Part shown: piece after piece, positions 1,988 to 16,016 of the stretch
Position numbering within the stretch: the first letter of the stretch is position 1
Layout of the letters: every line of letters begins with the position of its first letter
Assembly (NCBI GenBank): GCA_964629545.1
Contig: CAZVRY010000008.1
Coordinates: forward strand, 37 to 64,036
From: an uncultured Verrucomicrobiota bacterium
GTDB lineage: Bacteria > Verrucomicrobiota > Verrucomicrobiia > Limisphaerales > CAZVRY01
DNA length: 64,000 nt
Direction: 5' to 3'
The notes under the pieces: model-generated
Database searches by the model: none
Seen by the model: the letters and a program-made list of their open reading frames with translations, nothing else
What the model was told of the DNA's origin: nothing
Position numbers and translations under genes: made by a program

Positions 1988-2884
1988 ATGCTTTTCGAGC
2001 GCCAGAAGCGTCTGCTTGCCTTGGTGGATGCCTTCGGCGGAGACGTCGGCAGCCTGGATTTCCAGAAACTGCTCTTCCTCTATTGCCGGGAGGTCGAAAC
2101 GGCGCCCAGCTACGAGTTTGTTCCCTACCGCTTCGGTGCCTTTTCGTTCACGTCCTACGCCGACAAGCGGCGCTTGATCGCGCAGGGCTTGTTGGCTGAC
2201 GAGGAGCGGGGGTGGCGATTAACCGCTGAGGGCCGGAAGTTGGCCTGCATCAACCCAGCCGCCCGCCTGCGTTTGGACGGCTTCGTTCGGAACCACCAGG
2301 GACTGCGGGGCGATGCCTTGGTGGCCGAGAGTTACCGCCGCCATCCCTATTTCGCGACCCGGAGCGAGATAGCGGACCGAGTGCTCGGCGGCGACGCGCT
2401 GGCCATGCATGCAATCGGCGCCGCCCGCCCGGCGCGTGGCTGTCCGGGCGTCTGCACGATCGGCTACGAAGGCCGGACGTTGGAAGGCTACCTGAACCGA
2501 TTGCTCCAGGACGGCGTGACCTTGCTCTGTGATGTCCGGAGGAACGCCTACAGCCACAAATACGGGTTTTCAGGCGTTACGCTGGGAAAGGCCTGCGAAG
2601 GAGTCGGCCTCCGCTACGAGCATTTGCCAGAACTGGGCATCGCCTCCCAGGAGCGACGGGAACTTCGAACCCAGGCGGACTACGACGCCTTGTTTGCTGT
2701 GTATGAACGGGAGAGCCTCCCGCGGCAGGGCGCAGCCATGGCCAGGATTCACGTTTGGGTGGGAGAGGGGAACCGGGTGGCATTGACCTGTTTCGAGGCC
2801 CAGCCACACCAATGCCATCGGCATTGTGTGGCCGAGGCGCTGGCGGTCCGCTACGGCAAGGAGTTGCAGGCGGCCCATTTGTAG
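1988..2884 (+). CDS. DUF488-domain protein with an unassigned ~110-aa N-terminal domain
   Basis: 298-aa ORF with an ATG start, divergent from the NTPase gene (157-nt spacer). The C-terminal half (CTIGYEGRTLEGYLNRLLQDGVTLLCDVRRNAYS...RVALTCFEAQPHQCHRHCVAEAL) matches my memory of the DUF488 family signature. The N-terminal part (FQKLLFLYC...YEFVPYRFGAFSF) is unassigned. Confidence 0.55.
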   Translation: MLFERQKRLLALVDAFGGDVGSLDFQKLLFLYCREVETAPSYEFVPYRFGAFSFTSYADKRRLIAQGLLADEERGWRLTAEGRKLACINPAARLRLDGFVRNHQGLRGDALVAESYRRHPYFATRSEIADRVLGGDALAMHAIGAARPARGCPGVCTIGYEGRTLEGYLNRLLQDGVTLLCDVRRNAYSHKYGFSGVTLGKACEGVGLRYEHLPELGIASQERRELRTQADYDALFAVYERESLPRQGAAMARIHVWVGEGNRVALTCFEAQPHQCHRHCVAEALAVRYGKELQAAHL

Positions 2885-2937: not shown

Positions 2938-4173
2938 TTATCCGGCGGCGACCATCCAACCCCAGGGCAACGCCAGTAGATCGGCGTCGAGCGGGCGGGC
3001 CTGTCCCGCGTGCAACACCACGCTGCGCACGAGGTTGGATTTCTTCTTGAACGAATCTCGGAAGGCCCGAATTCCCGCTGCGTCGGAACTGGTCACGGTG
3101 CTGCCTGCTTTGATTTCCAGGGCGACGAGTTGCCCGGCCTGCTCGAGGATGAAATCCACTTCGTGCCCCGGGCGGTCGCGCCAGAAATGGAGTTTCCGGT
3201 CGAGCGGATCGAGCGCCCGCCAGGTTTGCAGGGTTTGGAACAGGGTCTGTTCCAGCCAGAAGCCAGCGTCAGGACGGTTGGACAAGTCCGTCCGGGTCTT
3301 GATGCCCGCCAGCGAAGCTGCCAGGCCGCAGTCGGTCCAAAGCAGTTTGGGGGTCTTGACCAGCGGAATGGACGGGTTCGAGGCGTATGGACGGATCCTG
3401 GAGATCAGGCAGCCAGTCTCCAGCAGATTCAGGTAGCGGTGGGTGGTGGGATGGGGCAGGGCGGCGTCGCGGGCAATGTCGGCTTGATTGAGCAACCGGC
3501 CGGTGCGGTGGGCGGCCAGCGCCATCACTCGCTGGAAATCCGGCAGGCTGGACACCGCGCTCAACTGGCGGAGGTCGCGTTCGAGGTAGGTCTGGACGTA
3601 GGCGGAAAACCATAGGGCGCGGTCGGCGTCATCGGCGATGGCCAGGGCCGGCGGGAACCCACCGCGCAACAACCAGGCCGGCCAGTCGCCGGTTTCAACC
3701 GGCCACTCCCGGAAATCGAAGTCGGCGGCGAAAAGGCGGTCGAGCGGTTGGAGGGCGTCGTGGCGTTGCTGCCATTCCGCCGGGCAGAAGGGCGGGAGTT
3801 CGAGATAGATCGCGCGCCCCGCCAGCGTGTCGGCCACGCTGCCCATCAGAAGCAGGTTAGCGGACCCAGTGAGGAGAAAATCACCCGCGCGGCGATCCTC
3901 GTCCACGGCGCGCTTGACGGCCAGGAGCAGGGACGGGGTGCGTTGCACTTCATCCAGCGTGACTGGGCGGCTGCCGAGCAAGGCATCGGGACTGCGCTCG
4001 GCCTGGTCCAATACGCCGAGATCATCCAGCGTGAAGTAGGCGCGGTCGGGGTCCATGGACTTGACCAGGGTGGTTTTGCCCGTCTGCCGGGCGCCGGTGA
4101 CGACCGTCACCGGCAGGACGCGGAGGGCGGATTCGAGGTTCCGGACATACCAACGCGGACGAATACCGTTCAT
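2938..4173 (-). CDS. AAA-family ATPase with a DUF4143-like C-terminal domain
   Basis: 411-aa ORF with an ATG start. Walker A is VTVVTGARQTGKTTLV. The C-terminal HEVDFILE...ALEIKAG resembles the restriction-endonuclease-like DUF4143 module usually fused to AAA_14 ATPases. Confidence 0.7.
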   Translation of the reverse strand: MNGIRPRWYVRNLESALRVLPVTVVTGARQTGKTTLVKSMDPDRAYFTLDDLGVLDQAERSPDALLGSRPVTLDEVQRTPSLLLAVKRAVDEDRRAGDFLLTGSANLLLMGSVADTLAGRAIYLELPPFCPAEWQQRHDALQPLDRLFAADFDFREWPVETGDWPAWLLRGGFPPALAIADDADRALWFSAYVQTYLERDLRQLSAVSSLPDFQRVMALAAHRTGRLLNQADIARDAALPHPTTHRYLNLLETGCLISRIRPYASNPSIPLVKTPKLLWTDCGLAASLAGIKTRTDLSNRPDAGFWLEQTLFQTLQTWRALDPLDRKLHFWRDRPGHEVDFILEQAGQLVALEIKAGSTVTSSDAAGIRAFRDSFKKKSNLVRSVVLHAGQARPLDADLLALPWGWMVAAG

Positions 4174-4301: not shown

Positions 4302-4378
4302 ACCCCTCACCCCATCCCTCTCCCCAACCCTTGGAAGCGATGCAGAGGGGTTGGTGAGAGGGAGACAGGGGAGGGGGC
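4302..4378. repeat. G/C-rich imperfect palindromic element (REP-like hairpin)
   Basis: The left arm is CCCCTCACCCCATCCCTCTCCCCAACCC and the loop is TTGGAAGCGATGCAGA. The right arm is GGGGTTGGTGAGAGGGAGACAGGGGAGGGGG. The inner arm segments CCCTCTCCCCAACCC / GGGGTTGGTGAGAGGG pair with one mismatch. The element is intergenic and related in motif content (CCCTCACCC, CCCTCTCCC) to the element at 9101-9160. Confidence 0.5.
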
Positions 4379-4503
4379 AATCCCATGTCGGCTTACTTCC
4401 GAACTCAGCAATAGAATCCAACCCTTGCTGGCCCCGCGCATTTGGTTCTTCCATTCGCTGGCGGAGCTTGCTAGCACTGCTAGCAGAACTGAGAAGACGT
4501 TAT

Positions 4504-4740
4504 ATGCCGCAACTTCTGGTTAGACAAATCGAAGAGAAGGTCGTGAAGAAGCTCAAAGAGCGGGCTGGCCTGCATGGGGTATCCATGGAGGAGGAACACC
4601 GTCGGATCCTGCGTGAGGTGTTGCTGGGGAGTTCCACCAAGCGGCAATCCTTCAAGGATTTTCTGCTCTCGATGCCGAACGTGGGCGAGGACAAGGACTT
4701 TGCACGGAGCCCGCAGATCCCACGCCCGATTGACCTATGA
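4504..4740 (+). CDS. vapB: VapB/FitA-type (Arc/RHH-like) antitoxin
   Basis: ATG at 4504 lies inside the longer track ORF 4351-4740. The 78-aa product MPQLLVRQIEEKVVKKLKERAGLHGVSMEEEHRRILREVL is typical of FitA/VapB plasmid-stability antitoxins. Its stop overlaps the vapC start (ATGA at 4737-4740). Confidence 0.7.
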   Translation: MPQLLVRQIEEKVVKKLKERAGLHGVSMEEEHRRILREVLLGSSTKRQSFKDFLLSMPNVGEDKDFARSPQIPRPIDL

Positions 4741-5171
4741 GCGGCTTCCTTCTGGATACGAACGTGCTCAGCGAACTGCGCAAAGAGGACCGTTGCAATC
4801 CCGGCGTCCGCGAGTGGATCGAAGGCCACGCCTCCGAGGCGGTATTCGTGAGTGTCCTCGTGCTCGGCGAAATCCGGCAGGGCATCGAACGAATCCGGTT
4901 GCGCGATGATCGCCAGGCTCGGGCGCTGGAAGCATGGCTGAAGCGCTTGAGGGTCGAGTTCGCCGATCGCATTCTGGCCGTCGACGAGCGCATCGCGGAT
5001 CAGTGGGGACGCCTGGGTCTGCGCCGACCGGTCCCACCGGTCGACGCCTTCATCGCAGCGACAGCACTCGTTCACGATCTCGCGGTGGTCAGCCGGGATG
5101 AGGAGGGCTTTCGCAACAGCGGCGTGCAGGTCGTCAATCCGTTCTCCAAACCGCACTCTGCCCACAACTGA
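4737..5171 (+). CDS. vapC: PIN-domain toxin VapC/FitB
   Basis: 144 aa. The N-terminus MSGFLLDTNVLSELRK, then LVLGEIRQG, DAFIAATALVHDLAVVSRDEEGF give a PIN acidic-residue pattern. It has a 4-nt overlap with the upstream antitoxin. Confidence 0.8.
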   Translation: MSGFLLDTNVLSELRKEDRCNPGVREWIEGHASEAVFVSVLVLGEIRQGIERIRLRDDRQARALEAWLKRLRVEFADRILAVDERIADQWGRLGLRRPVPPVDAFIAATALVHDLAVVSRDEEGFRNSGVQVVNPFSKPHSAHN

Positions 5172-8100
5172 ATGGCAACCGTGTTCATCAAGGATTTGCT
5201 GGACCTGCCCGAACAGGTCAGCCGGGGTGACTTCGTCCTGCGCCTGACAGAGGGCGTGACGCGTCCGGACGAAACCTTGCGCGATTACGTCGTGACCAAG
5301 CAACTGGTGGGCTGCTTCGATGCTGCGCTGGGCTTGATCAAGAGCGCGATTGAACAGCGATCGAGCAAAGCGGCCTACCTGCACGGCAGCTTCGGCAGCG
5401 GCAAGAGCCATTTCATGGCGGTGCTGCACCTGCTCTTGGCGGGCCACGTGAAGGCGCGGGGCATTCCCGAACTCAGCGAAGTGGTGGCCAAACACACGGC
5501 TTGGACAGAGGGAAAACGCATTCTCTTGGTGCCCTATCACCTGATCGGCGCACGCAACCTGGAGTCGGCCATCCTCGGCAATTACGCGGCTTACATGCGC
5601 CGGACCCATCCCGGAGCGCCCACCCCGGCGGTGTATCGCTCGGAGAAGTTGCTGGAGAATGCGGATTCGCACCGGCAAGCCCTGGGCGACGCGAAGTTCT
5701 TCACCCAACTCAACCAGCGTCCGGGGCAGACCGTAGCGAGCGACGGTTGGGGCAGCGTTAGGGCCGGGTGGGATGCCGCATCCTACGCGAGTGCCCGTCA
5801 TGCGGCCCCGGAAACGGATGAACGCCGGCGACTGGTCGGGGACCTGGTGGACTCGCTGTTCCCGGCGATGCGTGAAACGAATGAGTTCGTGGACTTGGAC
5901 GATGGGTTGGCCGTTCTCAGTGCCCACGCCAAGTCCCTCGGTTACGACGCCCTGATTCTATTTCTGGACGAGTTAATCCTGTGGCTAGCCAGCCATGCGG
6001 CGAATGTGGATTTCGTCAGCCAGGAGGCCCAGAAGGTCCCCAAGCTGGTCGAGTCGGAACGGGCGGATCGTCCGGTGCCGATCGTGAGTTTCGTGGCGCG
6101 ACAGCGCGATCTGCGAGAATTGGTAGGGCAGCACATCACCGGGGCCGAGCGGATGAGCTTTTCGGACGTGCTGTCCTGGTGGGAAGGGCGATTTAGCACC
6201 ATCAGCCTGGAGGACCGGAACCTCCCGGCCATCGCCGAGAAGCGCATCTTGAAGCCAAAGAGCGTGGACGCACGGCGCCTGATGGACGAGGAATTTGCGC
6301 GGACGGCAGCTCTTCGCGAGGAAGTAAAGAAGGTGCTGCTGACGACCCACTCGAACCCGGAGGATTTCCGCAAATTGTATCCGTTCAGCCCGGCGTTGGT
6401 GGAGACTTTGGTGGCGGTGTCGTCCCTCCTGCAACGGGAGCGCACGGCGCTCAAGATCATGGTGCAGCTTCTGGTGACGCAACGCGACACGCTGCAATTG
6501 GGGCAGATTGTGCCCGTGGGCGATCTCTACGACCAAATCGCACAAGGCGACGAGGCCTTCAGCACCGATATGAAGGCGCATTTCGATAATGCGCACCGGA
6601 TGTACCAGCAACACCTGCGTCCGCTCATGGAGCAGGAGCACAACCTGACCTTCGAGCAGGCGGCCGAACTACCCCTGGGCGATCCGCGTCGGCGGGCGTT
6701 GCGCAACGATGATCGGCTGGTGAAAACCCTGCTGCTCGCGGCCCTGGCGCCAGAAGTGGAATCGCTGAAGCAGATGACCCCTGGTCGGCTGGCGGCGCTC
6801 AACCACGGCACGATCACCACGCCCATTCCAGGGCAGGAAGCGGCGACGGTGCTGAACAAGTGCAAGAAGTGGGCAGCGGCGGTGGGGCAGATCAAGATCC
6901 AGGAGAGCGCCAGTGGCCAACCTACCATCACGCTCCAACTCAGCGGCGTGGATACGCACCGCATCCTCGATCAGGCCGAGTCCGTGGACAACCACGGCAA
7001 CCGCGTGCGTAAGCTTAAGGACATCCTACTGAGCCAAATGGGGATCGCCGTCGAACAGGAGCTTTATGCGCGACACCAGTTTCGCTGGCGGGGTACCAAC
7101 CGTGAGTGTGAGGTCATTTTCAACAACGTTCGCGATTTGCCGGATGAGACCTTGCACACCACGGGTGATGGATGGCGATTGATCATTGATTACCCCTTCG
7201 ACACCGCCAACCACACGGCCCACCAGGACCTTGAACGGCTGGAGCGGTTTCGCGCGGAGGGGAAGGAAGCCCGAGTGATCTGCTGGATCCCGTCGTTTTT
7301 CAACCGCAAGGTCCAGCAGGATCTTGGCTTGTTGGTGCGGCTCGACTACATCCTGACAGAGAATCGCTATCCGACATTTGTCGCCCACCTCTCGGAGGTG
7401 GACCGAGCGGCAGCCCGCGCCCAGCTTCAAAACCAACGGGACATTTTGTGCGGCCAACTGGTCTCGCAGTTGGAGATGGCGTACGGCCTGCGTGGGGGAG
7501 GGGCAGAGTATCTGGATCCCGGTAACGCGTTGGAGGCCGCCGAGCAGTTTCAGGCGTTGGTGCCCTCGCTGGTGTTGCAGCCGCCGGTGGCGAGCAACTT
7601 CAGGGAAGGCCTCGTCGGGCTGCTGGATCAGGCGCTGACGTCGCAGTTTCCGGCGCATCCGGTCTTCGAGGAGGACGCGTTGCTCACCAAAGGACCACTC
7701 TCCAAGGTGCTGGAGGTGATCCGGGTGGCGGCTCGCGATCCCAACGGCGTCGCCAAAGTGGAGCCGACCGACCGCAAACACATGCTGCGCGTCGCCGTGC
7801 CCATGAAACTTGGCGACATGGGGGAAAACCGGTTCCAGGTCGGTCATTACTGGAAACAGCATTTCAACAAGCGGATCGCCCAACATGGTCCGGCGGTCAA
7901 GCCCTTGACCGTCCGCCGGCTTCGCGATTGGACGGACGAACCCACGCCGATGGGGCTGCCGCAGATGGTTCAGGATTTGGTGGTCCTCACCTTTGCCGAG
8001 CAGACCGACCGGTTCTTCACCTTGCACGGAACTCCGGTCGAAGGGGAGATCGGCGGGCTAAACGACGAAGCTGTGCTTCACGAGACGGATCTGCCGATCC

Positions 8101-9020
8101 AGGCTGATTGGGACGTCGCGCGCGACCGGGCCAAGCACATCTTCGGGGTAGATAGTTCTCCGCTTCTGAATGCCGGCAATCTGGCGGGTTTGGCAGCCAA
8201 CATCCACGGTGTCATCGGGCAACACCGTGCGGGAATCCTGGCGCTGCCGAACCGGCTCGATGCTGTGAGGCAGCAGGTGTGGTCCGGGCTTTCTACCTGC
8301 CAGCGCCTGGACACGGCCACCGAGGTGGCTGGGTTGGTCAAGCAACTGGACGATGCGCGGTCCGAAGTGGACGCCATCAAACGGCTCGTCGGAGCCCAAC
8401 TCAAAGCCAAGCCTGCGGTCCTGGGCGCGAGCCTGAAGTCCGCGGGAACGGTCGAGCAGGCGTTGCTGCACTCCGACTGGAAGGTCTTCAACAGCATTCG
8501 CGGGTCGAGTGACAGCCGGAAGTCCGAAGCCGAACGGATCTGGCAGGATTTGGAGATTTGTTTCGTCAGCGATGAACTGGCTGTGGCATTGGTGGCCAGG
8601 TTCGGCTCGCTGCGGGATGAGGCGATTGACCTCCTGGCGCGGAACCTGGCCCCTCCGCCGGCTCCCGCTCAGCCACCTCCCCAGGCTGCGCCGCCTCAAA
8701 CATCGCCACCAACCCTTCCTCCACCGACGCCGCCTGCCATCGCGCTCAAACGCCTCTACAAGCGGAGCCAGGTGGAAGGCGATGCGCTCCCAAACTGGGT
8801 GTCGGAGGCCGCGGCCATGGATTTGCTGCGGGTGCTTTACATTCAACCGCCAGCGCAAGGCGGTGACCAACGCTCGAACATGGTGGTGGTGACGCCCACC
8901 CTCCAGGCGTTGATTCAGTCAGATCCCGGAGCTGTCATCGATCTGACGAAGGGAGAGCTTCTCCTGCCGAGGTATGGCAAGCGGTTGAGGATCGAGGTAT
9001 CACCGCAGCACAACGGTTGA
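5172..9020 (+). CDS. BREX BrxC/PglY-class large P-loop ATPase (DUF6079-like)
   Basis: 1282 aa. The ATG lies directly after the vapC TGA (0-nt spacer). The N-terminal FVLRLTEGV...DYVVTKQLVGCFDAALGLIKSAI...AYLHGSFGSGKSHFMAVLHLLL carries a Walker A at about nt 5385-5411. A Pro-rich linker (APPPAPAQPPPQAAPPQTSPPTLPPPTPP) sits near the C-terminus. The gene is followed by pglZ, brxD and brxHI-like genes. Confidence 0.65.
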   Translation: MATVFIKDLLDLPEQVSRGDFVLRLTEGVTRPDETLRDYVVTKQLVGCFDAALGLIKSAIEQRSSKAAYLHGSFGSGKSHFMAVLHLLLAGHVKARGIPELSEVVAKHTAWTEGKRILLVPYHLIGARNLESAILGNYAAYMRRTHPGAPTPAVYRSEKLLENADSHRQALGDAKFFTQLNQRPGQTVASDGWGSVRAGWDAASYASARHAAPETDERRRLVGDLVDSLFPAMRETNEFVDLDDGLAVLSAHAKSLGYDALILFLDELILWLASHAANVDFVSQEAQKVPKLVESERADRPVPIVSFVARQRDLRELVGQHITGAERMSFSDVLSWWEGRFSTISLEDRNLPAIAEKRILKPKSVDARRLMDEEFARTAALREEVKKVLLTTHSNPEDFRKLYPFSPALVETLVAVSSLLQRERTALKIMVQLLVTQRDTLQLGQIVPVGDLYDQIAQGDEAFSTDMKAHFDNAHRMYQQHLRPLMEQEHNLTFEQAAELPLGDPRRRALRNDDRLVKTLLLAALAPEVESLKQMTPGRLAALNHGTITTPIPGQEAATVLNKCKKWAAAVGQIKIQESASGQPTITLQLSGVDTHRILDQAESVDNHGNRVRKLKDILLSQMGIAVEQELYARHQFRWRGTNRECEVIFNNVRDLPDETLHTTGDGWRLIIDYPFDTANHTAHQDLERLERFRAEGKEARVICWIPSFFNRKVQQDLGLLVRLDYILTENRYPTFVAHLSEVDRAAARAQLQNQRDILCGQLVSQLEMAYGLRGGGAEYLDPGNALEAAEQFQALVPSLVLQPPVASNFREGLVGLLDQALTSQFPAHPVFEEDALLTKGPLSKVLEVIRVAARDPNGVAKVEPTDRKHMLRVAVPMKLGDMGENRFQVGHYWKQHFNKRIAQHGPAVKPLTVRRLRDWTDEPTPMGLPQMVQDLVVLTFAEQTDRFFTLHGTPVEGEIGGLNDEAVLHETDLPIQADWDVARDRAKHIFGVDSSPLLNAGNLAGLAANIHGVIGQHRAGILALPNRLDAVRQQVWSGLSTCQRLDTATEVAGLVKQLDDARSEVDAIKRLVGAQLKAKPAVLGASLKSAGTVEQALLHSDWKVFNSIRGSSDSRKSEAERIWQDLEICFVSDELAVALVARFGSLRDEAIDLLARNLAPPPAPAQPPPQAAPPQTSPPTLPPPTPPAIALKRLYKRSQVEGDALPNWVSEAAAMDLLRVLYIQPPAQGGDQRSNMVVVTPTLQALIQSDPGAVIDLTKGELLLPRYGKRLRIEVSPQHNG

Positions 9021-9100
9021 ACTCACAAATTGCACATGCGATGGCTACGAACGCCCGGCAACGGCACTATTGAGGAGTAACCCGGATGGACTACGAGATT

Positions 9101-9160
9101 ACCCTCACCCTCCCTTCGGGCACCCTCTCCCATCGGATGGGAGAGGGCCGGGGTGAGGGT
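9101..9160. repeat. Nested palindromic element between the ATPase and pglZ genes
   Basis: The outer arms ACCCTCACCC / GGGTGAGGGT are perfect reverse complements. The inner hairpin is CCCTCTCCCA-TCGGA-TGGGAGAGGG. The element is intergenic; the track's GTG start at 9153 lies inside it. Confidence 0.6.
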
Positions 9161-9206
9161 CACTTGTTGCATGCGCCGATTGCTGCACAGTAAGGCCAGT
9201 TCCAAG

Positions 9207-11894
9207 ATGTTGACACCCGCCCAGGTCCGAGCCCAAGTCACCGCCATCCGGAAGCGGACGGCCAATGGCGCGCGCGCTTTTGCGATCCATGCCCACGCGG
9301 CTTGGATGGGGCCGGATCATCTGGAAGTGGCCGGCGAAGAACACAAGGTCGTGTCGTGCCAGTCCGATTTGCACGTCCGCGAAGCCTTGTTGCAGTCGGA
9401 CGCTGCACAACAACCCTGCATCCTGCTTTGTCATTTCGACCCGGCGCAGCTTGCCGATGACGTTTTGGCTCGCCTGGCCAAACGCCGCGTTTTCCATCCG
9501 CAGGCCAGCGAAGTGCTGGCCGAGCTTTTCGGAGCCCGTGTCATCGATCCCCGCGTTCTGGCCTGCAAGCCGCTCGTGGAAGCGCTGACGACAAAGACTC
9601 CTCAAGCCGGCTACAAGCCCGTCAGCGGCGGCAGCCTGGATTTCCAAACCGCCTGGCTCGCCCTGATCGAAACCGTCTTTGAGCAGAGGTGGGAAGGGCC
9701 AAGCCTTACGGGCATTTTGGGTTGGTCGCTCGACGAATCGAAGCTCCGCGCCTTCCGCGATCTGAACCCAGCTTTGCGCAAAGCCATGGCCGAGTGGTTC
9801 GTTCGTTCCAGGGGTGAGGCAGCCCGTTTCATGCTCTCGGCTTTGGAGGCCAACGCCGGGCCGGAGTTGCTGCCGCTCGGCTTGCTGGCCGGTCTTCTCT
9901 TTCAGTCCCAGTGCCGCGGGACCCCGGAAGCCCAAGTTGCCCTGGGCAGGTTGGAACGCTATTTCGACCACCGGGAGATCGACGAGCCCAGCGCGGTGGC
10001 TTGGGCTTCGGCGGCGGACGAATGGCTGCAAGAACACGCCGTGGCGGATCGGGGTTCCGTGCATCCACTCCTGGTCGGGTTGGACCGGTTGGTTGATCAG
10101 ACACGCGTTGCCGCACTGGCCCGCTTCAGCAAGTTCTCGCCGACCGGGTTGGAAATGCGTTTCGATGCAGTCGGCACAACCTTGGCCAGCGCGCTCAAAG
10201 TTGGGGGAGCCGACGCTCTGAAGCGTGCCGTGGCCGCCTTGCGTGAAGTCGAGACCCATTTCCTGGCCAGCGAGCACACCGCGCGCATCGGGCGCATCGG
10301 CATGGCCCTGCGCCTCCTGTCCTGGCTCCAAACGCCAGAGAATCCTGCTTCGCAGGCCAGCCTGTCACAGTTGTCTGCTTTCTACCTGAAGGAGGGTGGG
10401 TTCCTGGACTGGGCCAGAGACAACCTCCGGGAGTCGGACCCGGTGGGATCGTTGCGGGAGGCGTATCAAGAGATCCTGCGCCAGGTCGATTCGCGCTTTG
10501 GCAGAATGGAGCAGTCGTTTGTCCTGAGCTTTCAGCGATGGCTCGCCGATGGCAGTCCAGCCGGCGTCATGCTGCCGGTTGAAGATGTGCTGGGCGAGGT
10601 TGTCTGTCCGGCCGCTCGCGAGCATCCGGTCCTGTTGCTGGTGCTCGATGGGATGAGTGTGGCGGCATTCCGCCAGTTGCTAGACGACTTGCTGCGCCGG
10701 GACTGGGTGGAGCTGTCACACCCCAGAATTGGATTGCCCAAGCCCGTCGCGGCCGCCTTGCCTTCGATTACTGAGGTGTCGCGGTGGGCGTTGCTGGCTG
10801 GACGACTCGAGGAAGATCGGCGCAGCACGGAGAAGGCTGAGTTCAGCCGCAACCCCAGAGTGTTGGAATTGCTGGGAAACCAGTCCAAGCCGCAGTTGTT
10901 CACAAAGGGTGACCTGACCGCCACGAGTCAATTGGGGCTGGCCCCGGAGGTCCAGACGGCCATCCTCAATCGCAAGAACCGCCTCGTGGCCGTCGTGGTC
11001 AACGCGGTGGACGACCTGCTTGCGGCGGGCGACCAGGTGGCTGTCGCCTGGGAAATCGACACCATCAAGCCGCTTCGTGAATTGCTGCATGCGGCCCGGG
11101 ATGCTGGGCGCGTGGTGGTCCTCACCAGCGACCACGGGCATGTTCTGGACCAGAATTCACGCCAACTGCGGGCCGACGTCCCGGAGGCGGGTGACCGCTA
11201 CCGTGTGAGCGGTGGCGCGCTTGCGGAGGCGGAGATGGAGTTTACCGGGCGTCGCGTCGATCACGCGATGGGCTCGGCTGGCCTTGTCTGCCTCACGCAA
11301 CGCGAGTTTCGCTACCAGGCCAAGAAGCGGGGTTACCACGGCGGCGCCTGTGTGCAGGAAGTGGTCATCCCTTTGGCGGCTTTGCGGCATGTCGGCACCC
11401 CGGTACCAGAAGGTTGGGAGGACCTGCCCCCATTTCAACCAACCTGGTGGAATATCAGGCAGCCCACCAGTGAGGCCCCGGTGTTTCCTCCCCGCCCGAT
11501 CGCTCAACCGCCACGCGTAGCGCCGAAACCGCCTGGCGAATTGGATCTTTTTCCAGTCGTTGCGAAAGTGCCGGCCTCAGTGGCAGGCGACTGGCTGGGG
11601 GCGCTGCTGGTTTCACCGCTCTACCGCGAGCAAATGCGGCGAGCCACAAGAATGCCCAAGCTGCAGGACGAGATTCCCCGACTTCTGCGCGCCCTCGAAG
11701 CACGGGGCGGATCCATGCTTCGCGCTGCCCTGGCTCAAGAACTGGGCTTGCCCCTCTTCCGGATCGATGGGCTTGTTCAAAACGCGGGACGAATCCTCAA
11801 CCTGGACGGCTACGACGTGATTGGCTATGACCGCGCCGCGGAAACGGTCACCCTGAACCTGGAGTTGCTGAAGAGCCAATTCGGGCTCGAATGA
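9207..11894 (+). CDS. pglZ: PglZ-domain (alkaline-phosphatase superfamily) protein
   Basis: Motifs HPVLLLVLDGMSVAAFRQLL and RVVVLTSDHGHVLD are typical of PglZ. The start is ambiguous: GTG 9153 (inside the hairpin), ATG 9171 or ATG 9207. I chose 9207. Confidence 0.75.
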   Translation: MLTPAQVRAQVTAIRKRTANGARAFAIHAHAAWMGPDHLEVAGEEHKVVSCQSDLHVREALLQSDAAQQPCILLCHFDPAQLADDVLARLAKRRVFHPQASEVLAELFGARVIDPRVLACKPLVEALTTKTPQAGYKPVSGGSLDFQTAWLALIETVFEQRWEGPSLTGILGWSLDESKLRAFRDLNPALRKAMAEWFVRSRGEAARFMLSALEANAGPELLPLGLLAGLLFQSQCRGTPEAQVALGRLERYFDHREIDEPSAVAWASAADEWLQEHAVADRGSVHPLLVGLDRLVDQTRVAALARFSKFSPTGLEMRFDAVGTTLASALKVGGADALKRAVAALREVETHFLASEHTARIGRIGMALRLLSWLQTPENPASQASLSQLSAFYLKEGGFLDWARDNLRESDPVGSLREAYQEILRQVDSRFGRMEQSFVLSFQRWLADGSPAGVMLPVEDVLGEVVCPAAREHPVLLLVLDGMSVAAFRQLLDDLLRRDWVELSHPRIGLPKPVAAALPSITEVSRWALLAGRLEEDRRSTEKAEFSRNPRVLELLGNQSKPQLFTKGDLTATSQLGLAPEVQTAILNRKNRLVAVVVNAVDDLLAAGDQVAVAWEIDTIKPLRELLHAARDAGRVVVLTSDHGHVLDQNSRQLRADVPEAGDRYRVSGGALAEAEMEFTGRRVDHAMGSAGLVCLTQREFRYQAKKRGYHGGACVQEVVIPLAALRHVGTPVPEGWEDLPPFQPTWWNIRQPTSEAPVFPPRPIAQPPRVAPKPPGELDLFPVVAKVPASVAGDWLGALLVSPLYREQMRRATRMPKLQDEIPRLLRALEARGGSMLRAALAQELGLPLFRIDGLVQNAGRILNLDGYDVIGYDRAAETVTLNLELLKSQFGLE

Positions 11895-11903
11895 TCGAAA
11901 GCC

Positions 11904-13220
11904 ATGGTTAGCCCCAAACGACGAGAAGAGATCCTGGATGCCCTGCGGCGCGGCACGGTCCCGCAGGATGGCCTCGACGTGTTTGCGGTGGGCTTGGAAC
12001 GGTTCGAAGGCACGGTCGAGGCGGAGCTTCGCCGGGTCAAAGAGGGAGGCAACGCGTTCAAGGCGATCCGTGGCGACTACGGATGCGGCAAGACGTTCTT
12101 CTCCCGTTGGCTTCAGGAACGGGCTCGTCGCCAGGGTTTCGCCACGGCGGAAGTGCAGATCTCCGAGACTGAAACCCCGTTGCACCGGCTGGAGACGGTT
12201 TACCGGCGGATGCTGGAAAGGCTCGCGACGTCATCGGTGAGGACGGCGGCGTTTCGAAGTATCGTTGACGCCTGGTTCTACACCTTGGAGGAGGACGTCT
12301 TGAGCACAAGCGCGGTCACGGGGGCTGACGACCATCGACTGCTGGCCGAGACGAATCGCCTGATGGAGAAGCGTCTGGAGAATCTGTCGCAATCGGCGCC
12401 CAGTTTCTCGGCGGCCCTGCGCGGTTACCGCGAGGCGTTGGCCAAGGGCGACACCGCCACCGCTGAAGGCCTGATGGCCTGGGTGTCGGGGCAGCCGAAC
12501 GTTGGCGCCAGCCTTAAGCGGGCGGCCAATCTGAAGGGCGAGGTGGATCACTTTGCCGCGCTCAGCTTCCTCCGAGGATTGCTGGTGGTGTTGCGTGACT
12601 CAGGCCACGGCGGCCTGGTCATCGTCCTGGATGAAGTCGAAACGCTCCAGCGTGTCCGGACCGACGCGCGCGAAAAGGCGCTCAATGCGCTTCGCCAGTT
12701 GATCGACGAAATCGACGCGGGACGCTTTCCCGGGCTTTACCTGTTGATCACGGGAACGCCGACCTTCTTTGATGGGCCGCAGGGCATCAACAAACTCGCG
12801 CCCCTGGCCCAGCGATTGCAGACGGATTTCAGCACCGACTCACGCTTCGACAATCCGCGGGCCCCTCAGATCCGGCTGCAACCGTTTGATCTCGGCCTGC
12901 TCATGGCGGTCGGCCGCAAGGTCAGGGACTTGCATGCCGAGGGTTCCGCGGCGCGCCAGAAACTGCTCTTCGTGGCCGATGATTCTCTGATCGAGGCGCT
13001 CGCCCAAGGTGTGGCCGGGCGGTTGGGTGGGAAGATCGGCATTGCCCCACGCCTCTTCCTGAAGAAACTGGTGGCCGATGTCCTGGATCGTATCGAACTG
13101 CACCCGGATTTTGATCCGCGTCGCGACTACCGTTTGACGGTCCGGGAAGAGGAACTCACTGAGGAGGAACGCAACCTCGCCCCCGCCGGCTCGGTGGATG
13201 ACATCGCCTTGAAGCTGTGA
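11904..13220 (+). CDS. brxD: BrxD-like P-loop ATPase (DUF2791-type)
   Basis: 438 aa. REEILDALRRGTVPQDGLDVFAVGLERFE...FKAIRGDYGCGKTFFSRWL...AEVQISETETPLHRLETVYRRMLERL matches the remembered BrxD N-terminal pattern. Walker B-like motif is LVIVLDEVETL. The gene starts 9 nt after the pglZ stop. Confidence 0.75.
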   Translation: MVSPKRREEILDALRRGTVPQDGLDVFAVGLERFEGTVEAELRRVKEGGNAFKAIRGDYGCGKTFFSRWLQERARRQGFATAEVQISETETPLHRLETVYRRMLERLATSSVRTAAFRSIVDAWFYTLEEDVLSTSAVTGADDHRLLAETNRLMEKRLENLSQSAPSFSAALRGYREALAKGDTATAEGLMAWVSGQPNVGASLKRAANLKGEVDHFAALSFLRGLLVVLRDSGHGGLVIVLDEVETLQRVRTDAREKALNALRQLIDEIDAGRFPGLYLLITGTPTFFDGPQGINKLAPLAQRLQTDFSTDSRFDNPRAPQIRLQPFDLGLLMAVGRKVRDLHAEGSAARQKLLFVADDSLIEALAQGVAGRLGGKIGIAPRLFLKKLVADVLDRIELHPDFDPRRDYRLTVREEELTEEERNLAPAGSVDDIALKL

Positions 13221-15325
13221 GCTCCGTCGAGAAGCTCGATCCGCTGGTCCAGCACCACATCGTCAACACGCTGGGCTGGCGCGAGCTCCGTCAGCTCCAG
13301 GAGTTGAGCATTGAGCCTATTCTGAGAGGAGACCACAGCCTCCTGATTGCCCCGACGGCCGGGGGCAAGACCGAGGCGGCCTTCCTACCCGTTCTCTCCC
13401 GCATCTGCTCGGAAAGCTGGCCCCCGTTGAGCGTCCTTTACATCTGCCCGCTGAAGGCGCTCTTGAACAACCTGGCGGTAAGGTTGGACCGCTACACCAC
13501 CATGGTCGGCCGCAGCAGCGCGGTTTGGCACGGGGATATCCCCAGTGGCGATCGGGCGAGGATCCGTCGCCAGGCTCCTGACGTCCTCTTGACGACCCCA
13601 GAATCGCTGGAGTCGATGCTTGTCTCTACCAAGCCGGAGGGGCGGGAGATGCTCAAGTCCGTGCGCGTGGTGATCGTGGACGAAATTCACGCGTTTGCCT
13701 CCGACGACCGCGGCTGGCATTTGCTCGCCATTCTGGAACGGCTCTGCCGCATGTCGGGGCGCGAGATTCAACGGATCGGGCTGTCCGCCACCGTGGGGAA
13801 CCCCGAGCAGTTGCTCGACTGGTTGGCTGGCCATTGTGAAGGCCAACGGACGGTGACCATGCCTCCACCGGAGAGCGCATTAGCAGCCGAGGTCACGATG
13901 GATTACGTCGGCAATCTGGAGAATGCGGCGATTGTCATCTCCCGCTTGCATCGCGGGGAAAAGCGGTTGGTGTTCTGTGATAGCCGCAGTCAAGTCGAGG
14001 AACTCGCTGGACGGCTTCGAAGCCTGTCCGTTCGGACCTTCGTTTCGCACAGCTCCCTGGGTGTAGAAGAACGGCGTGAGGCTGAAGCGGCGTTCAGCGA
14101 AGGCGCGGATTGCGTTATCGTGGCCACGAGCACTCTGGAGTTAGGGATCGATGTTGGAGATTTGGATCGTGTCATCCAGATCGATGCCCCCAACACGGTG
14201 GCCTCGTTTCTGCAACGGGTCGGACGGACCGGCCGGCGTCCGGGTCAGCCGCGCAACTGCCTTTTCCTGGCCACATCGCCCAACAGCCTGCTCCGGGCCT
14301 GCGCGATCGTGCAGTTGTGGCGCGACGGCTTCGTCGAGCCGGTCGAACCGCCGCCGGTTCCGCTGCACGTTTTTGTCCAGCAACTGATGACGCTCGCGCT
14401 GCAATTGAACGGCCTTGGCGTGCGTGATTGGCGCCGTTGGCTGGGGCGACTGCCTCCTTTTCGTGATCTCACCGACTCTGACGTTGGCGAAATCCTGGAC
14501 CACATGCTCAGGGAGAACATCCTCTTTTCGGATGGCATCCGTTTGAGCCTCGGAGACCAGGCGCATGCAGAATTTGGGCGCCGTCACTTCATGGAGCTTC
14601 TGTCCGTCTTCACAACTCCTCCCATGATGACGGTGTGGCATGGGAATCGGGAACTCGGCCACGTGGATCAGATCTCAGTCGTGCGCGCCAAGCCGGATGA
14701 ACCGGTGATCCTCTCCTTGGGTGGGCGGGGGTGGCGCGTCCAGACCATCGACTGGACAGCCCGCAAAGCGTTCGTCGAGCCAGCGGAGACGAAAGGCCGA
14801 TCTTCATGGCTCGGGGTGCGGCGGGGCGTGTCCTATTGGATCGCCCGAGCGGTTCACCGGCTGCTGACTTCGGATGCCGGGGATCCCAGTTGGAGTCGCC
14901 GGACCGAGGAACAGATGGCGGCCCTGCGGATCGACTACGCTTTCCTCAAGCCGGACGCGGACGTCCTCGTTTCCGACCCATCCACAGGACGGTGGGAATG
15001 GCACACCCTGGCAGGGAGTGGCCTGAATCAAGTGCTCGCCCAATCCCTTGACCGCTCCGGACTCAACACCGCCGGCAGTGACGATTTCTTGATCGCCATG
15101 ATCGGTCCGGTCGATCCTGCGGTTTTCGAAAGTGTGGTCAGGGATCTCAACGCCGTTTCAGCTCGGGACCTTTTTGATCCTCCCGCCCAACTGGGGCAAT
15201 CGTTGAAGTTCAGCTCCTGCCTGCCACCCAGGATGGTCGCAGATCTCCTACGCCGGCGGTGGGTCGCCACAGCGCACCTACAGCAAGTCGTCGATCGTTC
15301 ACGGAAGGTCATCGTTGGTAAGTAA
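13217..15325 (+). CDS. brxHI: Lhr-like DEAD/DEAH helicase (BrxHI-like)
   Basis: 702 aa. The GTG start overlaps the brxD stop (GTGA). Helicase motifs are LIAPTAGGKTEAAF (I), VVIVDEIHAF (II), GLSATVGN (III) and QRVGRTGRR (VI). Confidence 0.75.
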   Translation: MSSVEKLDPLVQHHIVNTLGWRELRQLQELSIEPILRGDHSLLIAPTAGGKTEAAFLPVLSRICSESWPPLSVLYICPLKALLNNLAVRLDRYTTMVGRSSAVWHGDIPSGDRARIRRQAPDVLLTTPESLESMLVSTKPEGREMLKSVRVVIVDEIHAFASDDRGWHLLAILERLCRMSGREIQRIGLSATVGNPEQLLDWLAGHCEGQRTVTMPPPESALAAEVTMDYVGNLENAAIVISRLHRGEKRLVFCDSRSQVEELAGRLRSLSVRTFVSHSSLGVEERREAEAAFSEGADCVIVATSTLELGIDVGDLDRVIQIDAPNTVASFLQRVGRTGRRPGQPRNCLFLATSPNSLLRACAIVQLWRDGFVEPVEPPPVPLHVFVQQLMTLALQLNGLGVRDWRRWLGRLPPFRDLTDSDVGEILDHMLRENILFSDGIRLSLGDQAHAEFGRRHFMELLSVFTTPPMMTVWHGNRELGHVDQISVVRAKPDEPVILSLGGRGWRVQTIDWTARKAFVEPAETKGRSSWLGVRRGVSYWIARAVHRLLTSDAGDPSWSRRTEEQMAALRIDYAFLKPDADVLVSDPSTGRWEWHTLAGSGLNQVLAQSLDRSGLNTAGSDDFLIAMIGPVDPAVFESVVRDLNAVSARDLFDPPAQLGQSLKFSSCLPPRMVADLLRRRWVATAHLQQVVDRSRKVIVGK

Positions 15326-15437
15326 TGATCTCGGAGCGCGCCGGTTGTTGGTTGCTCATGGTCTGGGCATGGCAGGTGGCCCGTAGAGTTCTCGCTAAGC
15401 AGGCCAGGCTGAAGAAGATTAACCGGGAAACATCGTC

Positions 15438-16016
15438 CTATTTCGAGAGAACCAGCACTGCGTTTCGCCCCGCCTTGGTTGCGGTGTAGAGCCGCTTGGG
15501 GGACCTCCCTTTGCCAAGCTCGCTTGCTGCGAAGCCGAGATCAGCCAGTTCCTTCAATGCCCGGAGGGTGGGATTTAGACCAATTGAATGCTTGCCGCGC
15601 AAGCTCTTGCGCAGGGCCGTGGCGGTAACAGGGCCTCGAGGTTCCAGCATGACCAATTCGAGCAGAACTGACCTGCGCGTCTTTGCGCGCGCAACCAGGG
15701 CATATTTCCGCCAATTGAGGGGTGAGGAGATTGCAGGAATCTCGACGGCATAGGCTTCCATGACCGCCTGGCGTCCAGTCTCGGTGAGATCATACAGTTT
15801 TCCCGTGACGTGGCCGGGGTTGAGGCAGACCACTAACCTGCGCTGCCTCATCTCCTGCATCACGTGCCAAATGTCGCGAAGTTGGATCCGAGGGTTCAGC
15901 GCGCGCGCAGCCTGACAGATCTCGGTCGTCGTCATGGGCTTGCTCAGCACCCTGGCGATGGCTGAGCGCTGGCGTCCCCTCCCTATCCAGCGAATGAGTG
16001 ATTGTCGTCGTTCCAT
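15438..16016 (-). CDS. Tandem winged-helix (ArsR/MarR-like) DNA-binding protein
   Basis: 192 aa made of two similar ~80-aa halves. Each ends in a wing-like G(K/R)..LY..T..G(R)(Q/N)AV segment (TGKLYDLTETGRQAV and SPKRLYTATKAGRNAV). The gene is divergent from the M48 protease genes. Confidence 0.5.
   Translation of the reverse strand: MERRQSLIRWIGRGRQRSAIARVLSKPMTTTEICQAARALNPRIQLRDIWHVMQEMRQRRLVVCLNPGHVTGKLYDLTETGRQAVMEAYAVEIPAISSPLNWRKYALVARAKTRRSVLLELVMLEPRGPVTATALRKSLRGKHSIGLNPTLRALKELADLGFAASELGKGRSPKRLYTATKAGRNAVLVLSK

What the first reader, a model, noticed from the sequence alone, without database searches (positions are those of the whole stretch)
4504..15325. BREX-type-2-like core (BrxC/PglY-class ATPase, PglZ, BrxD, BrxHI) with no methyltransferase or PglW in cis, directly abutted by a VapBC module
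Six same-strand genes form the unit. vapB and vapC share an ATGA overlap. The vapC TGA (5169-5171) is immediately followed by the ATG (5172) of a 1282-aa P-loop ATPase (GSFGSGKSHFMAVL). Next come PglZ (LVLDGMS, TSDHGH), a BrxD-like ATPase (GDYGCGKTFF) and an Lhr-like helicase joined to brxD by a GTGA overlap.

In the described BREX types, the PglZ plus BrxC/PglY core is accompanied by a PglX methyltransferase. In type 4 a BrxP PAPS-reductase-like protein takes that place. Type 2 also carries the kinase PglW. No methyltransferase-like ORF is visible within 5 kb upstream or about 49 kb downstream. Either this is one half of a split type 2 system, or it is a modification-independent PglZ system transcriptionally or translationally tied to a PIN toxin-antitoxin pair.
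Basis: partly seen in the sequence, partly recalled or inferred. Interest (0 to 1): 0.7.

Follow-up and report, generated by a model that had tools for sequence, protein, structure and literature searches.

The report
Distal half of type-2 BREX locus
The six genes are the downstream half (pglY/brxC, pglZ, brxD, brxHI) of an ordinary type-2 BREX phage-defence locus with a mobile VapBC toxin-antitoxin pair in front; the "missing" methyltransferase and kinase most likely lie just beyond the window's left edge, as they do in the three relatives where this could be checked.

Summary
vapB, vapC, brxC/pglY, pglZ, brxD and brxHI sit where stated, the profile matches are overwhelming, and the junctions are as described. 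One correction: pglZ starts at 9207. No PglX, PglW or other DNA methyltransferase is encoded in the 64 kb.

The inference of a methyltransferase-less system does not hold. In 45 of 47 relatives with about 10 kb of upstream sequence, pglW-pglX lie upstream of brxC on the same strand. The spacer between them holds variable defence cargo and measures 0 to 7.5 kb, reaching 12.2 kb in a relative with 87% BrxC identity.

The three nearest lineages that could be checked all carry pglW and pglX. One of them holds the two halves at facing contig ends, inside one split Ppl-like gene.

The window shows only 5.2 kb upstream of brxC. All of it is cargo: a truncated Avs2, a DUF488 protein (PDC-M19A), a DUF4143 ATPase (PDC-S01) and vapBC.

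This vapBC family is mostly found away from BREX, so it is cargo and not a dedicated partner. A conserved operator-like palindrome suggests it supplies an autoregulated promoter for the distal operon.

Residual doubt is about 25%. The window's own upstream is unseen, and the truncated avs2 marks a rearrangement. Interest is low.

The parts
202..1830 (-). Truncated avs2-like STAND NTPase gene (542 aa, the N-terminal third of a protein of about 1500 aa). Defence cargo and a probable rearrangement scar.
   Evidence: PADLOC Avs2 PDLC02164, 594 bits, protein residues 5-527 matching profile positions 3-517 of 1504. No continuing frame in bases 1-201.
1988..2884 (+). DUF488 protein (PADLOC candidate defence family PDC-M19A). 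Cargo.
   Evidence: Pfam DUF488 E=8e-23. PDLC04505, 322 bits, full length.
2938..4173 (-). AAA_14-DUF4143 ATPase (PADLOC PDC-S01). Independent cargo gene, divergent from vapB.
   Evidence: Pfam hits. PDLC04790, 374 bits. An orthologous pseudogene sits at the same place in L008. A 92.7% identical copy lies in a context without BREX, L097.
4302..4377 (+). GC-rich imperfect palindrome (REP/MITE-like hairpin) in the divergent intergenic region.
   Evidence: Inverted repeats. RNA fold -51.8 kcal/mol, z=-4.2.
4469..4485 (+). Two tandem 8-bp palindromes, TGCTAGCA-C-TGCTAGCA, 18-35 nt upstream of the vapB ATG. Putative VapB (RHH) operator overlapping the operon promoter.
   Evidence: The GCTAGC(A/G)-NT-G(C/A)TAGCA motif is conserved upstream of vapB in L008 and L010 while the flanks diverge. 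Its second half is also at the start of L106. Function is inferred.
4504..4740 (+). vapB: FitA-like ribbon-helix-helix antitoxin (78 aa).
   Evidence: Pfam PF22513 E=4e-14. Orthologues in L008, L010, L105 and L106.
4737..5171 (+). vapC: PIN-domain toxin (144 aa). ATGA overlap with vapB; its TGA abuts the brxC ATG.
   Evidence: Pfam PIN E=1e-18. Sequence. Conserved D7, E45 and D103 in alignment A5.
5172..9020 (+). brxC/pglY: type-2 BREX ATPase (1282 aa).
   Evidence: PADLOC PDLC02488, 1435 bits. Walker A G72-S79 and D266/E267 are invariant in A1. 5917 homologues.
9021..9206 (+). Intergenic spacer carrying a window-specific insertion of about 173 nt with a strong hairpin (9101-9160).
   Evidence: Relatives have a 13-nt spacer (alignment). 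Fold -45.8 kcal/mol, z=-5.4.
9207..11894 (+). pglZ: alkaline-phosphatase-fold protein (895 aa).
   Evidence: PADLOC PDLC02565, 783 bits; Pfam PglZ. Start fixed by alignment A4.
11904..13220 (+). brxD: ORC/Cdc6-type AAA+ ATPase (438 aa).
   Evidence: PF10923, 468 bits; PADLOC BrxD, 654 bits.
13217..15325 (+). brxHI: Lhr/Ski2-like SF2 helicase (702 aa). GTGA overlap with brxD.
   Evidence: PADLOC BrxHI PDLC02503, 923 bits; DEAD, Helicase_C and WH_Lhr. Junction.

Best explanation
This is the distal operon (pglY/brxC-pglZ-brxD-brxHI) of a canonical type-2 BREX (Pgl) system in a Verrucomicrobiota bacterium, probably Pedosphaerales. In this family the order is pglW-pglX-[variable cargo]-pglY-pglZ-brxD-brxHI. 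The pglX|pglY junction is a hot spot where other defence and toxin-antitoxin genes accumulate.

Everything visible upstream of brxC in the window is such cargo: a truncated avs2, a DUF488/PDC-M19A gene, a DUF4143 ATPase/PDC-S01 gene and vapBC. pglW and pglX most likely lie further upstream on the same strand, beyond the window's left edge. The source contig is 12 kb longer than the window.

Mechanism. Taken from the literature: PglX is the DNA methyltransferase, and PglZ suppresses PglX toxicity. The PglY ATPase and the PglW kinase are required for resistance (S. coelicolor, Hoskisson 2015). Proposed roles in Rakesh and Krishnan 2026 are BrxD as loader of the BrxHI helicase and PglW as sensor.

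Inferred here: vapBC is a free-standing type II toxin-antitoxin module that landed immediately 5' of pglY. Its VapB-controlled promoter, marked by a conserved tandem TGCTAGCA palindrome, probably drives the distal operon. The stop-start abutment makes vapC and brxC co-transcribed and probably translationally coupled. The PIN toxin may add locus stabilisation or a back-up abortive-infection layer.
For: Family and order:
- All four core proteins match the type-2-specific PADLOC profiles nearly end to end.
- Synoicihabitans lomoniglobus (58% BrxC identity) has contiguous pglW-pglX-pglY-pglZ-brxD-brxHI.
- Of 80 species-representative loci, 47 have at least 9.5 kb upstream of brxC, and 45 of these carry PglX upstream on the same strand.
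- The pglX-to-brxC gap has median 1.7 kb and maximum 7.6 kb. It exceeds the window's visible 5.17 kb in 6 of 62 loci.

Cargo in that gap includes OLD-type ABC ATPases, Fic, MNT/HEPN, MqsA, GmrSD, HNH, Schlafen, PIN and AAA_14-DUF4143 proteins.

Nearest relatives:
- L004/L100 (BrxC 87%) looked pglWX-less within 10 kb. Walking upstream shows pglW, MNT/HEPN, pglX, an LmuB-like gene, GajA, GajB, DUF4365 and nSTAND before brxC, a 12.2 kb gap.
- Pedosphaerales DSVZ01 (76%) has contig_2969 ending in pglW-387aa-pglX followed by the N-part of a Ppl-like gene. Its contig_33 starts with the C-part of a Ppl-like gene, then a DUF4143 pseudogene, vapBC and brxC.
- L105 reads pglW-pglX-PDC-M56A/B-vapB-vapC. 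Among the four VapC proteins aligned in A5 it is the closest to the window's (73% identity).
- L010 (61%) reads pglX-DUF4143 ATPase-vapBC-brxC.

The window's upstream genes all hit PADLOC defence or candidate families.

The four core genes are under purifying selection within the clade, with dN/dS 0.04-0.2 although dS is saturated.

vapBC as cargo: about 28 metagenomic loci have 63-74% VapC identity. Only L106 (BrxC 88.7%, identical TGAATG abutment) and L155 have brxC beside it.

The operator-like motif is conserved.

Precedents: S. coelicolor pglWX and pglYZ are two operons 6 kb apart (PMC4365076). Auxiliary nucleases including PIN embedded in BREX loci are already described (PMC12839542).
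Against: - pglW and pglX were not found for this genome. The 64-kb window has none.
- A search with the closest PglX listed no hit on a 76,230-nt NCBI contig among the best 120. A partial or divergent gene would have been missed.
- The source contig is not indexed in the look-up tools. The window's left end has no exact match in the JGI metagenomes.
- avs2 is truncated with no continuation. A deletion or rearrangement therefore happened on exactly the side where pglX is expected, and it could have removed pglWX.
- Two of 47 relatives (L067, L071) lack pglX upstream within 10 kb. L011 shows none within 6 kb.
- No sigma-70-like promoter was detected by the simple scan. The promoter and operator role is inferred only.
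Confidence: 0.66

Rival explanations
1. Recently orphaned half. A deletion or rearrangement at the cargo hot spot, marked by the truncated avs2, removed pglW-pglX in this strain. That left vapBC-pglY-pglZ-brxD-brxHI as an intact but no longer functional BREX remnant, or one with only residual function. Losing the methyltransferase while keeping pglZ is the tolerated direction, because PglX is toxic without PglZ.
For: - avs2 stops after 542 of about 1500 residues, and bases 1-201 show no continuation.
- There is no PglX or PglW anywhere in the 64 kb.
- No PglX hit on a 76,230-nt contig was listed.
- PglX is toxic in the absence of PglZ, but not the reverse (PMC4365076).
- L135 shows that decay does occur here: vapBC followed by only the first ~115 codons of brxC.
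- L067 and L011 are candidate pglX-less loci.
Against: - All four core ORFs are full length with intact motifs.
- Every close relative that could be checked retains pglWX.
- The truncation may be local and need not reach pglX.
- The source contig has 12 kb outside the window where pglX could sit.
Confidence: 0.18
2. Truly split system. pglW-pglX are intact but on a distant locus, tens of kilobases away or on another replicon, and act in trans on the distal operon.
For: In S. coelicolor the two operons are transcribed separately and work together (PMC4365076). The Pgl proteins were complemented from an ectopic site in that study. L071 shows that the relative position of the halves can change, with pglWX downstream of pglZ.
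Against: Where pglX was found in relatives it lies on the same strand upstream of brxC, within 12.2 kb in every locus seen on a single contig. L071 has it downstream of pglZ instead, and in DSVZ01 the two halves sit on separate contigs whose ends face each other. No confirmed case of distant separation was seen.
Confidence: 0.08
3. The cassette is a modification-independent PglZ system (PglY-PglZ plus the BrxD-BrxHI dyad) that defends without any methyltransferase or kinase and is functionally coupled to the VapC PIN toxin.
For: - BrxD and BrxHI are homologous to SngB and SngC of Shango, a methyltransferase-free defence system (PADLOC hits of 121 and 392 bits).
- The vapC-brxC abutment and the operator-like motif are conserved in the 89% relative L106.
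- The core genes are under purifying selection.
Against: - The clade that shares the cassette and vapBC has pglW and pglX. Purifying selection is therefore explained by the canonical system.
- vapBC of this family is overwhelmingly found without BREX.
- pglX and pglW are genetically required in the only type-2 system studied (PMC4365076).
Confidence: 0.06

Closest known systems
Type-2 BREX / Pgl system of Streptomyces coelicolor A3(2) (pglW, pglX, pglY, pglZ)
   Same: It has the same PglY and PglZ families. The genes lie in two units, with pglWX and pglYZ reported as two operons 6 kb apart (PMC4365076). This matches the cargo-interrupted layout inferred here.
   Different: The phylum differs: Verrucomicrobiota here, whereas 1039 of the 1309 type-2 taxa counted in PMC12839542 are actinomycetes. 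pglWX was not seen for this genome. The spacer here is at least 5.2 kb of identifiable defence cargo including a VapBC pair.
Contiguous BREX-2 locus of Synoicihabitans lomoniglobus (Verrucomicrobiota), L003
   Same: BrxC is 58% identical. The order pglY-pglZ-brxD-brxHI is identical, with the same overlapping junctions. NCBI names its partner 'BREX-2 system adenine-specific DNA-methyltransferase PglX'.
   Different: There, pglX ends 33 nt before pglY and there is no cargo. Here vapBC and three other cargo genes occupy that position.
BREX loci with embedded auxiliary or back-up effectors (Rakesh and Krishnan, NAR 2026, PMC12839542)
   Same: That paper describes nucleases and toxin-antitoxin-like modules (HEPN, Schlafen, PIN, OLD/TOPRIM, HNH) encoded inside BREX operons between core genes. 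The cargo seen here and in relatives fits that description.
   Different: The paper reports PIN endoRNases as the less common class. Here the PIN toxin belongs to a classical RHH-PIN VapBC pair that is mostly free-standing elsewhere.
Shango (SngA TerB-domain protein, SngB ATPase, SngC helicase)
   Same: BrxD hits the SngB profile (121 bits) and BrxHI hits the SngC profile (392 bits) in PADLOC. They form the same ATPase-helicase dyad.
   Different: No SngA/TerB protein is present. The BrxD and BrxHI profiles score far higher (654 and 923 bits). PglY and PglZ are present.
FitAB/VapBC type II toxin-antitoxin modules
   Same: The module has an RHH antitoxin (PF22513) and a PIN toxin, a 4-nt gene overlap, and a palindromic operator-like site upstream.
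   Different: Its stop codon abuts the start of a 10-kb defence operon, so its promoter probably also serves that operon. This is inferred.

Membership tests
Type-2 BREX (Pgl) | PglY/BrxC-class ATPase of the type-2 subfamily | tested here: met
   PADLOC PDLC02488, 1435 bits, residues 4-1178 matching profile positions 3-1190 of 1240. Walker A and B are invariant.
Type-2 BREX (Pgl) | PglZ alkaline-phosphatase-fold protein | tested here: met
   PADLOC PDLC02565, 783 bits, nearly full length. Pfam PglZ 33.9 bits against a cut-off of 25.
Type-2 BREX (Pgl) | BrxD ATPase and BrxHI Lhr-like helicase as an adjacent dyad | tested here: met
   PF10923, 468 bits. PADLOC BrxD 654 bits and BrxHI 923 bits. 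GTGA overlap between the genes.
Type-2 BREX (Pgl) | PglX N6-adenine DNA methyltransferase in the system | tested here: inconclusive
   Absent from the 64-kb window. Present upstream in L100, L103 (same MAG as L008), L105, L010 and 45 of 47 other relatives. The window's own upstream beyond 5.2 kb could not be read.
Type-2 BREX (Pgl) | PglW (NERD nuclease, tandem kinases, wHTH, iSTAND) | tested here: inconclusive
   No PglW in the window. The two Ser/Thr kinases at 45.5-52.1 kb match only through the kinase domain. PglW is present in L100, L103 and L105. PMC12839542 detects PglW in about 80% of type-2 taxa.
Type-2 BREX (Pgl) | Gene order pglW-pglX-(spacer)-pglY-pglZ-brxD-brxHI on one strand | tested here: inconclusive
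   The distal four genes are in the canonical order and orientation. The proximal two are not visible.
VapBC type II toxin-antitoxin | Small DNA-binding antitoxin gene overlapping a downstream PIN toxin gene with conserved acidic residues | tested here: met
   PF22513 and PF01850. ATGA overlap. D7, E45 and D103 are invariant in A5.
VapBC type II toxin-antitoxin | Autoregulation through an operator upstream of the antitoxin gene | not testable with these tools
   A tandem TGCTAGCA palindrome is conserved in four loci. Binding and repression need experiments.
Shango | SngA TerB-domain protein together with SngB and SngC | tested here: not met
   No TerB/SngA hit among the six cassette proteins or the three genes upstream of vapB, all scanned with PADLOC. 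The BrxD and BrxHI profiles outscore SngB and SngC.
Type-4 BREX | BrxP PAPS-reductase-like protein in place of the methyltransferase | tested here: not met
   No such hit in any scanned ORF. The core proteins match type-2 profiles best.

The most novel reading that the evidence does not exclude
In this particular genome pglW and pglX are really gone, with the truncated avs2 marking the deletion. The VapB-controlled vapBC-pglY-pglZ-brxD-brxHI operon is nevertheless retained and active as a methyltransferase-independent defence. In this reading the Shango-like BrxD-BrxHI dyad and PglZ act as effectors and VapC as a back-up toxin.
Probability: 0.07. Interest if true: 0.6.

Novelty: new member of a known kind. 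Interest (0 to 1): 0.2.

Why it matters
It matters mainly as a caution. A BREX core that appears to lack its methyltransferase within 5-10 kb is usually an effect of limited flank or a contig break. The pglX|pglY junction of type-2 BREX is a cargo hot spot that can hold more than 12 kb of other defence genes.

The locus extends type-2 BREX, a mostly actinobacterial system, to Pedosphaerales-like Verrucomicrobiota. It also gives a clean example of a free-standing VapBC module captured at that junction. Its conserved operator-like site and stop-start abutment suggest that a toxin-antitoxin promoter can take over expression of the distal BREX operon. That is a modest, testable regulatory idea and not a new kind of system.

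Tried and rejected
1. Looking up the exact BrxC (P0001) to read the rest of the 76,230-nt source contig: not on record. BrxD and the DUF4143 ATPase returned only 1-4 kb Logan contigs.
2. Cluster look-ups to get NCBI accessions and match a PglX from the same assembly: no accessions were held.
3. Searching with the closest PglX for a hit on a 76,230-nt NCBI contig: none among the best 120 listed. This is not conclusive for partial genes.
4. Exact 40-mer from the window's left end against JGI metagenomes: 0 matches.
5. DUF4143 ATPase as a conserved partner of the cassette: rejected. A 92.7% identical copy sits in an unrelated context (L097). The L093 and L010 copies are not detectably related at the sequence level.
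6. The two Ser/Thr kinases downstream as PglW: rejected. Similarity is confined to the kinase domain; one carries WD40/TPR repeats and neither has a NERD hit.
7. The L004 N6_N4 methyltransferase downstream of brxHI as a replacement methyltransferase: no homologue in the window. It became unnecessary once pglX was found upstream.
8. The L004 clade as genuinely pglWX-less: this was my working idea. One search overturned it.
9. DNA overlap between the DSVZ01 contig ends: none by blastn. The link rests on orientation and on the N- and C-terminal Ppl-profile matches.
10. Sigma-70 promoter scan of 3900-16200: 0 sites, uninformative for this phylum.
11. dN/dS: dS is saturated (above 1), so the ratios are only rough.

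Full report
**Observation**

The ORF map, junction sequences and profile scans confirm six co-directional genes.

- vapB, 4504-4740, is a FitA-like RHH antitoxin.
- vapC, 4737-5171, is a PIN toxin and overlaps vapB by ATGA.
- brxC/pglY, 5172-9020, has its ATG directly after the vapC TGA.
- pglZ follows.
- brxD is at 11904-13220.
- brxHI is at 13217-15325 and overlaps brxD by GTGA.

The four core proteins match the type-2 BREX PADLOC profiles almost end to end, at 1435, 783, 654 and 923 bits.

One correction is needed. An alignment with three relatives puts the pglZ start at ATG 9207. It also shows that the 186-nt brxC-pglZ spacer holds a window-specific insertion of about 173 nt. That insertion carries a very stable hairpin (-45.8 kcal/mol, z=-5.4). 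Relatives have a 13-nt spacer.

**No methyltransferase or PglW in the window**

I scanned all plausible ORFs of the 64 kb with Pfam and/or PADLOC. I also ran tblastn with four PglX and two PglW proteins taken from relatives. Nothing was found.

The two Ser/Thr kinases at 45.5-52.1 kb share only the kinase domain with PglW. However, only 5.17 kb lie upstream of brxC.

**What relatives show**

The exact BrxC is on an NCBI contig of 76,230 nt, 12 kb longer than the window. Its closest relatives are Verrucomicrobiota, including Pedosphaerales and Opitutales.

Synoicihabitans lomoniglobus (58% BrxC identity) has the textbook contiguous order pglW-pglX-pglY-pglZ-brxD-brxHI.

I fetched 80 species-representative loci with 10-kb flanks and classified their ORFs with phmmer.

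- Of the 47 loci with at least 9.5 kb upstream, 45 have PglX upstream of brxC on the same strand.
- One locus (L071) has pglWX downstream, and one (L067) has none.
- The pglX-to-brxC gap is highly variable: median 1.7 kb, at least 500 nt in 48 of 62 loci, maximum 7.6 kb.
- The gap exceeds the 5.17 kb visible in the window in 6 of 62 loci.

The ORFs inside these gaps are defence and toxin-antitoxin cargo. They include OLD-type ABC ATPases, Fic, MNT/HEPN, MqsA, GmrSD, HNH, Schlafen, PIN and AAA_14-DUF4143 proteins. This matches the embedded auxiliary and back-up effectors described by Rakesh and Krishnan (PMC12839542).

**The nearest clade**

Loci with 76-89% BrxC identity at first looked pglWX-less in four different contexts. 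I briefly entertained a methyltransferase-less clade whose four genes are under purifying selection (dN/dS 0.04-0.2, dS saturated). Walking outwards overturned this.

1. L004/L100 (87% identity). I looked up the GajA-like gene at the locus edge and read 10 kb further. The order is pglW, MNT/HEPN, pglX (1532 aa), an LmuB-like gene, GajA, GajB, DUF4365, nSTAND (1626 aa), then brxC. That is 12.2 kb of cargo between pglX and pglY.
2. Pedosphaerales DSVZ01 MAG (76% identity). It shares with the window the arrangement of a DUF4143 ATPase on the minus strand followed by vapB-vapC-brxC-pglZ-brxD-brxHI.
   - That cassette sits at the very start of contig_33.
   - Contig_2969 of the same assembly ends with pglW (PDLC02512, 1377 bits), a 387-aa gene and pglX (PDLC02529, 1602 bits).
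   - The gene cut by the end of contig_2969 matches positions 216-337 of the 894-position PADLOC Ppl profile.
   - The gene cut by the start of contig_33 matches positions 763-890 of the same profile, in the same orientation.
   - The two halves are almost certainly contiguous across an assembly break inside one Ppl-like cargo gene. The same pair of broken contigs is seen in an independent Logan assembly (L104, L009).
3. L105. It carries the C-terminal part of pglW, two small genes, pglX, an OLD-like PDC-M56A/B pair, then vapB-vapC at the contig end. Its VapB and VapC are about 80% and 73% identical to the window's.
4. L010 (61% identity). The order is pglX, DUF4143 ATPase, vapBC, brxC.

**The window's upstream region is cargo**

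- Bases 202-1830 on the minus strand encode the N-terminal third of an Avs2 STAND NTPase (594 bits, profile positions 3-517 of 1504).
- Bases 1988-2884 encode a DUF488/PDC-M19A protein.
- Bases 2938-4173 on the minus strand encode an AAA_14-DUF4143/PDC-S01 ATPase.

The DUF4143 gene is orthologous to the pseudogene at the same position in DSVZ01. It also occurs at 92.7% identity in a locus with no BREX genes, so it is an independent gene.

The avs2 gene is truncated, and bases 1-201 show no continuation. This is a rearrangement scar on the side where pglX is expected. It is the main reason I keep about 18% on the rival that pglWX were deleted in this strain.

**VapBC**

A metagenome scan with a VapC alignment returned about 28 loci with 63-74% identity to the window's VapC. 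Only L106 and the fragment L155 have brxC next to it. L106 has 88.7% BrxC identity and the identical AACTGAATGGC stop-start junction.

This VapBC family is therefore a free-standing, mobile type II toxin-antitoxin module that was captured at the pglX|pglY hot spot in one verrucomicrobial lineage. It is not a dedicated BREX component.

Two tandem 8-bp palindromes (TGCTAGCA-C-TGCTAGCA, 4469-4485) lie 18-35 nt upstream of the vapB ATG. The motif is conserved in L008, L010 and L106 while the flanking sequence diverges.

With the divergent upstream gene and the zero-nt vapC-brxC spacing, the most economical inference is as follows. A VapB/VapBC-autoregulated promoter now drives vapBC together with the distal BREX operon. 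This parallels S. coelicolor, where pglYZ is a separate operon from pglWX, 6 kb away (PMC4365076). The inference is not shown, and the simple sigma-70 scan found nothing.

**What I could not do**

The source contig is not indexed. No accessions were available. No PglX on a 76,230-nt contig appeared among the 120 best hits. The window's left end has no exact match in the JGI metagenomes. The presence of pglWX in this genome is therefore inferred from relatives and not observed.

**Verdict**

This is the distal half of a canonical, cargo-interrupted type-2 BREX (Pgl) locus in a Verrucomicrobiota MAG. It is preceded by a captured VapBC module.

- The methyltransferase-less, TA-tied PglZ system interpretation is not supported.
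- The split type-2 alternative is supported in the sense of a split in cis by cargo.
- Novelty is low: a new member of a known kind. Both the split layout and embedded PIN or toxin-antitoxin effectors are already in the literature.

Noticed in passing
window 26076-29072 (flanked by 23362-25065 and 29084-31561): A possible ubiquitin-like conjugation defence module. A 585-aa protein has a weak JAB hit (residues 173-288) and E2 hits (465-580). It is followed by a ThiF/E1 protein (Pfam ThiF E=9e-21; PADLOC E1-E2 profiles up to 81 bits). The neighbouring 567-aa and 825-aa proteins have no hits, although the 567-aa one contains a GGGKSN P-loop-like motif.
   Followed up: partly
window 16723-18855 and 18985-21096: Two tandem proteins of about 700 aa, each with only a weak Peptidase_M48 (HExxH region) hit near the C-terminus. 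They lie in a stretch with unusually strong negative AT skew (about -0.27 at 17-21 kb). No PADLOC hit.
   Followed up: no
window 9021-9206 and 4302-4377: GC-rich REP/MITE-like hairpins built on CCCTCTCCC/GGGAGAGGG and CCCTCACCC/GGGTGAGGG arms (-45.8 and -51.8 kcal/mol). The first is a ~173-nt insertion between brxC and pglZ that is absent from three relatives. It could attenuate or stabilise the operon transcript.
   Followed up: partly
window 202-1830 (-): An Avs2-type antiviral STAND gene truncated after its N-terminal third. No reading frame continues in bases 1-201, which points to a rearrangement breakpoint near the window's left end.
   Followed up: partly
window 45545-47731 (+) and 48020-52096 (-): Two Hanks-type Ser/Thr kinases, the second with WD40 and TPR repeats. 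They hit the PADLOC PD-T4-6, mad6 and MkoA kinase profiles through the kinase domain only. They are not PglW.
   Followed up: partly
window 36777-45458 (-) and 58203-63920 (-): Giant surface-type proteins (2893 and 1905 aa) with Big_9, cadherin-like, Laminin_G_3, Ig and F5/8-type-C domains. A 1124-aa ORF at 53516-56890 has no Pfam or PADLOC hit.
   Followed up: no
L100 2519-3293 and 7922-19985: In the relative with 87% BrxC identity, an MNT/HEPN pair sits between pglW and pglX. An LmuB-like gene, a Gabija-like GajA/GajB pair, a DUF4365 gene and a 1626-aa nSTAND NTPase fill 12.2 kb between pglX and pglY. This is several defence systems nested inside one BREX locus.
   Followed up: partly
L103 13762-15051 and L008 2-1762: In the Pedosphaerales DSVZ01 MAG the assembly breaks inside a Ppl-like gene, in two independent assemblies. 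This separates pglWX from pglYZ-brxD-brxHI onto different contigs. Such breaks would make automated tools call two incomplete BREX systems.
   Followed up: yes
L135 7722-8847: vapBC (51% VapC identity) is followed by only the first ~115 codons of brxC on a contig that continues for 1.9 kb. This is an apparent decayed remnant of the vapBC-brxC junction.
   Followed up: partly
L071; L054 16393-20140: Atypical type-2 layouts. The Spirochaetia locus L071 has pglW-pglX downstream of pglZ and no brxD or brxHI within 10 kb. L054 has a second PglX-like ORF between pglZ and brxD.
   Followed up: no
L008, L010 and window vapBC: VapC of L008 and L010 are 77% identical to each other, although their BrxC proteins are only 63% identical. 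The window's VapC is 55% and 48% identical to them. This suggests the TA cargo was exchanged or evolves at a different rate from the BREX core.
   Followed up: no
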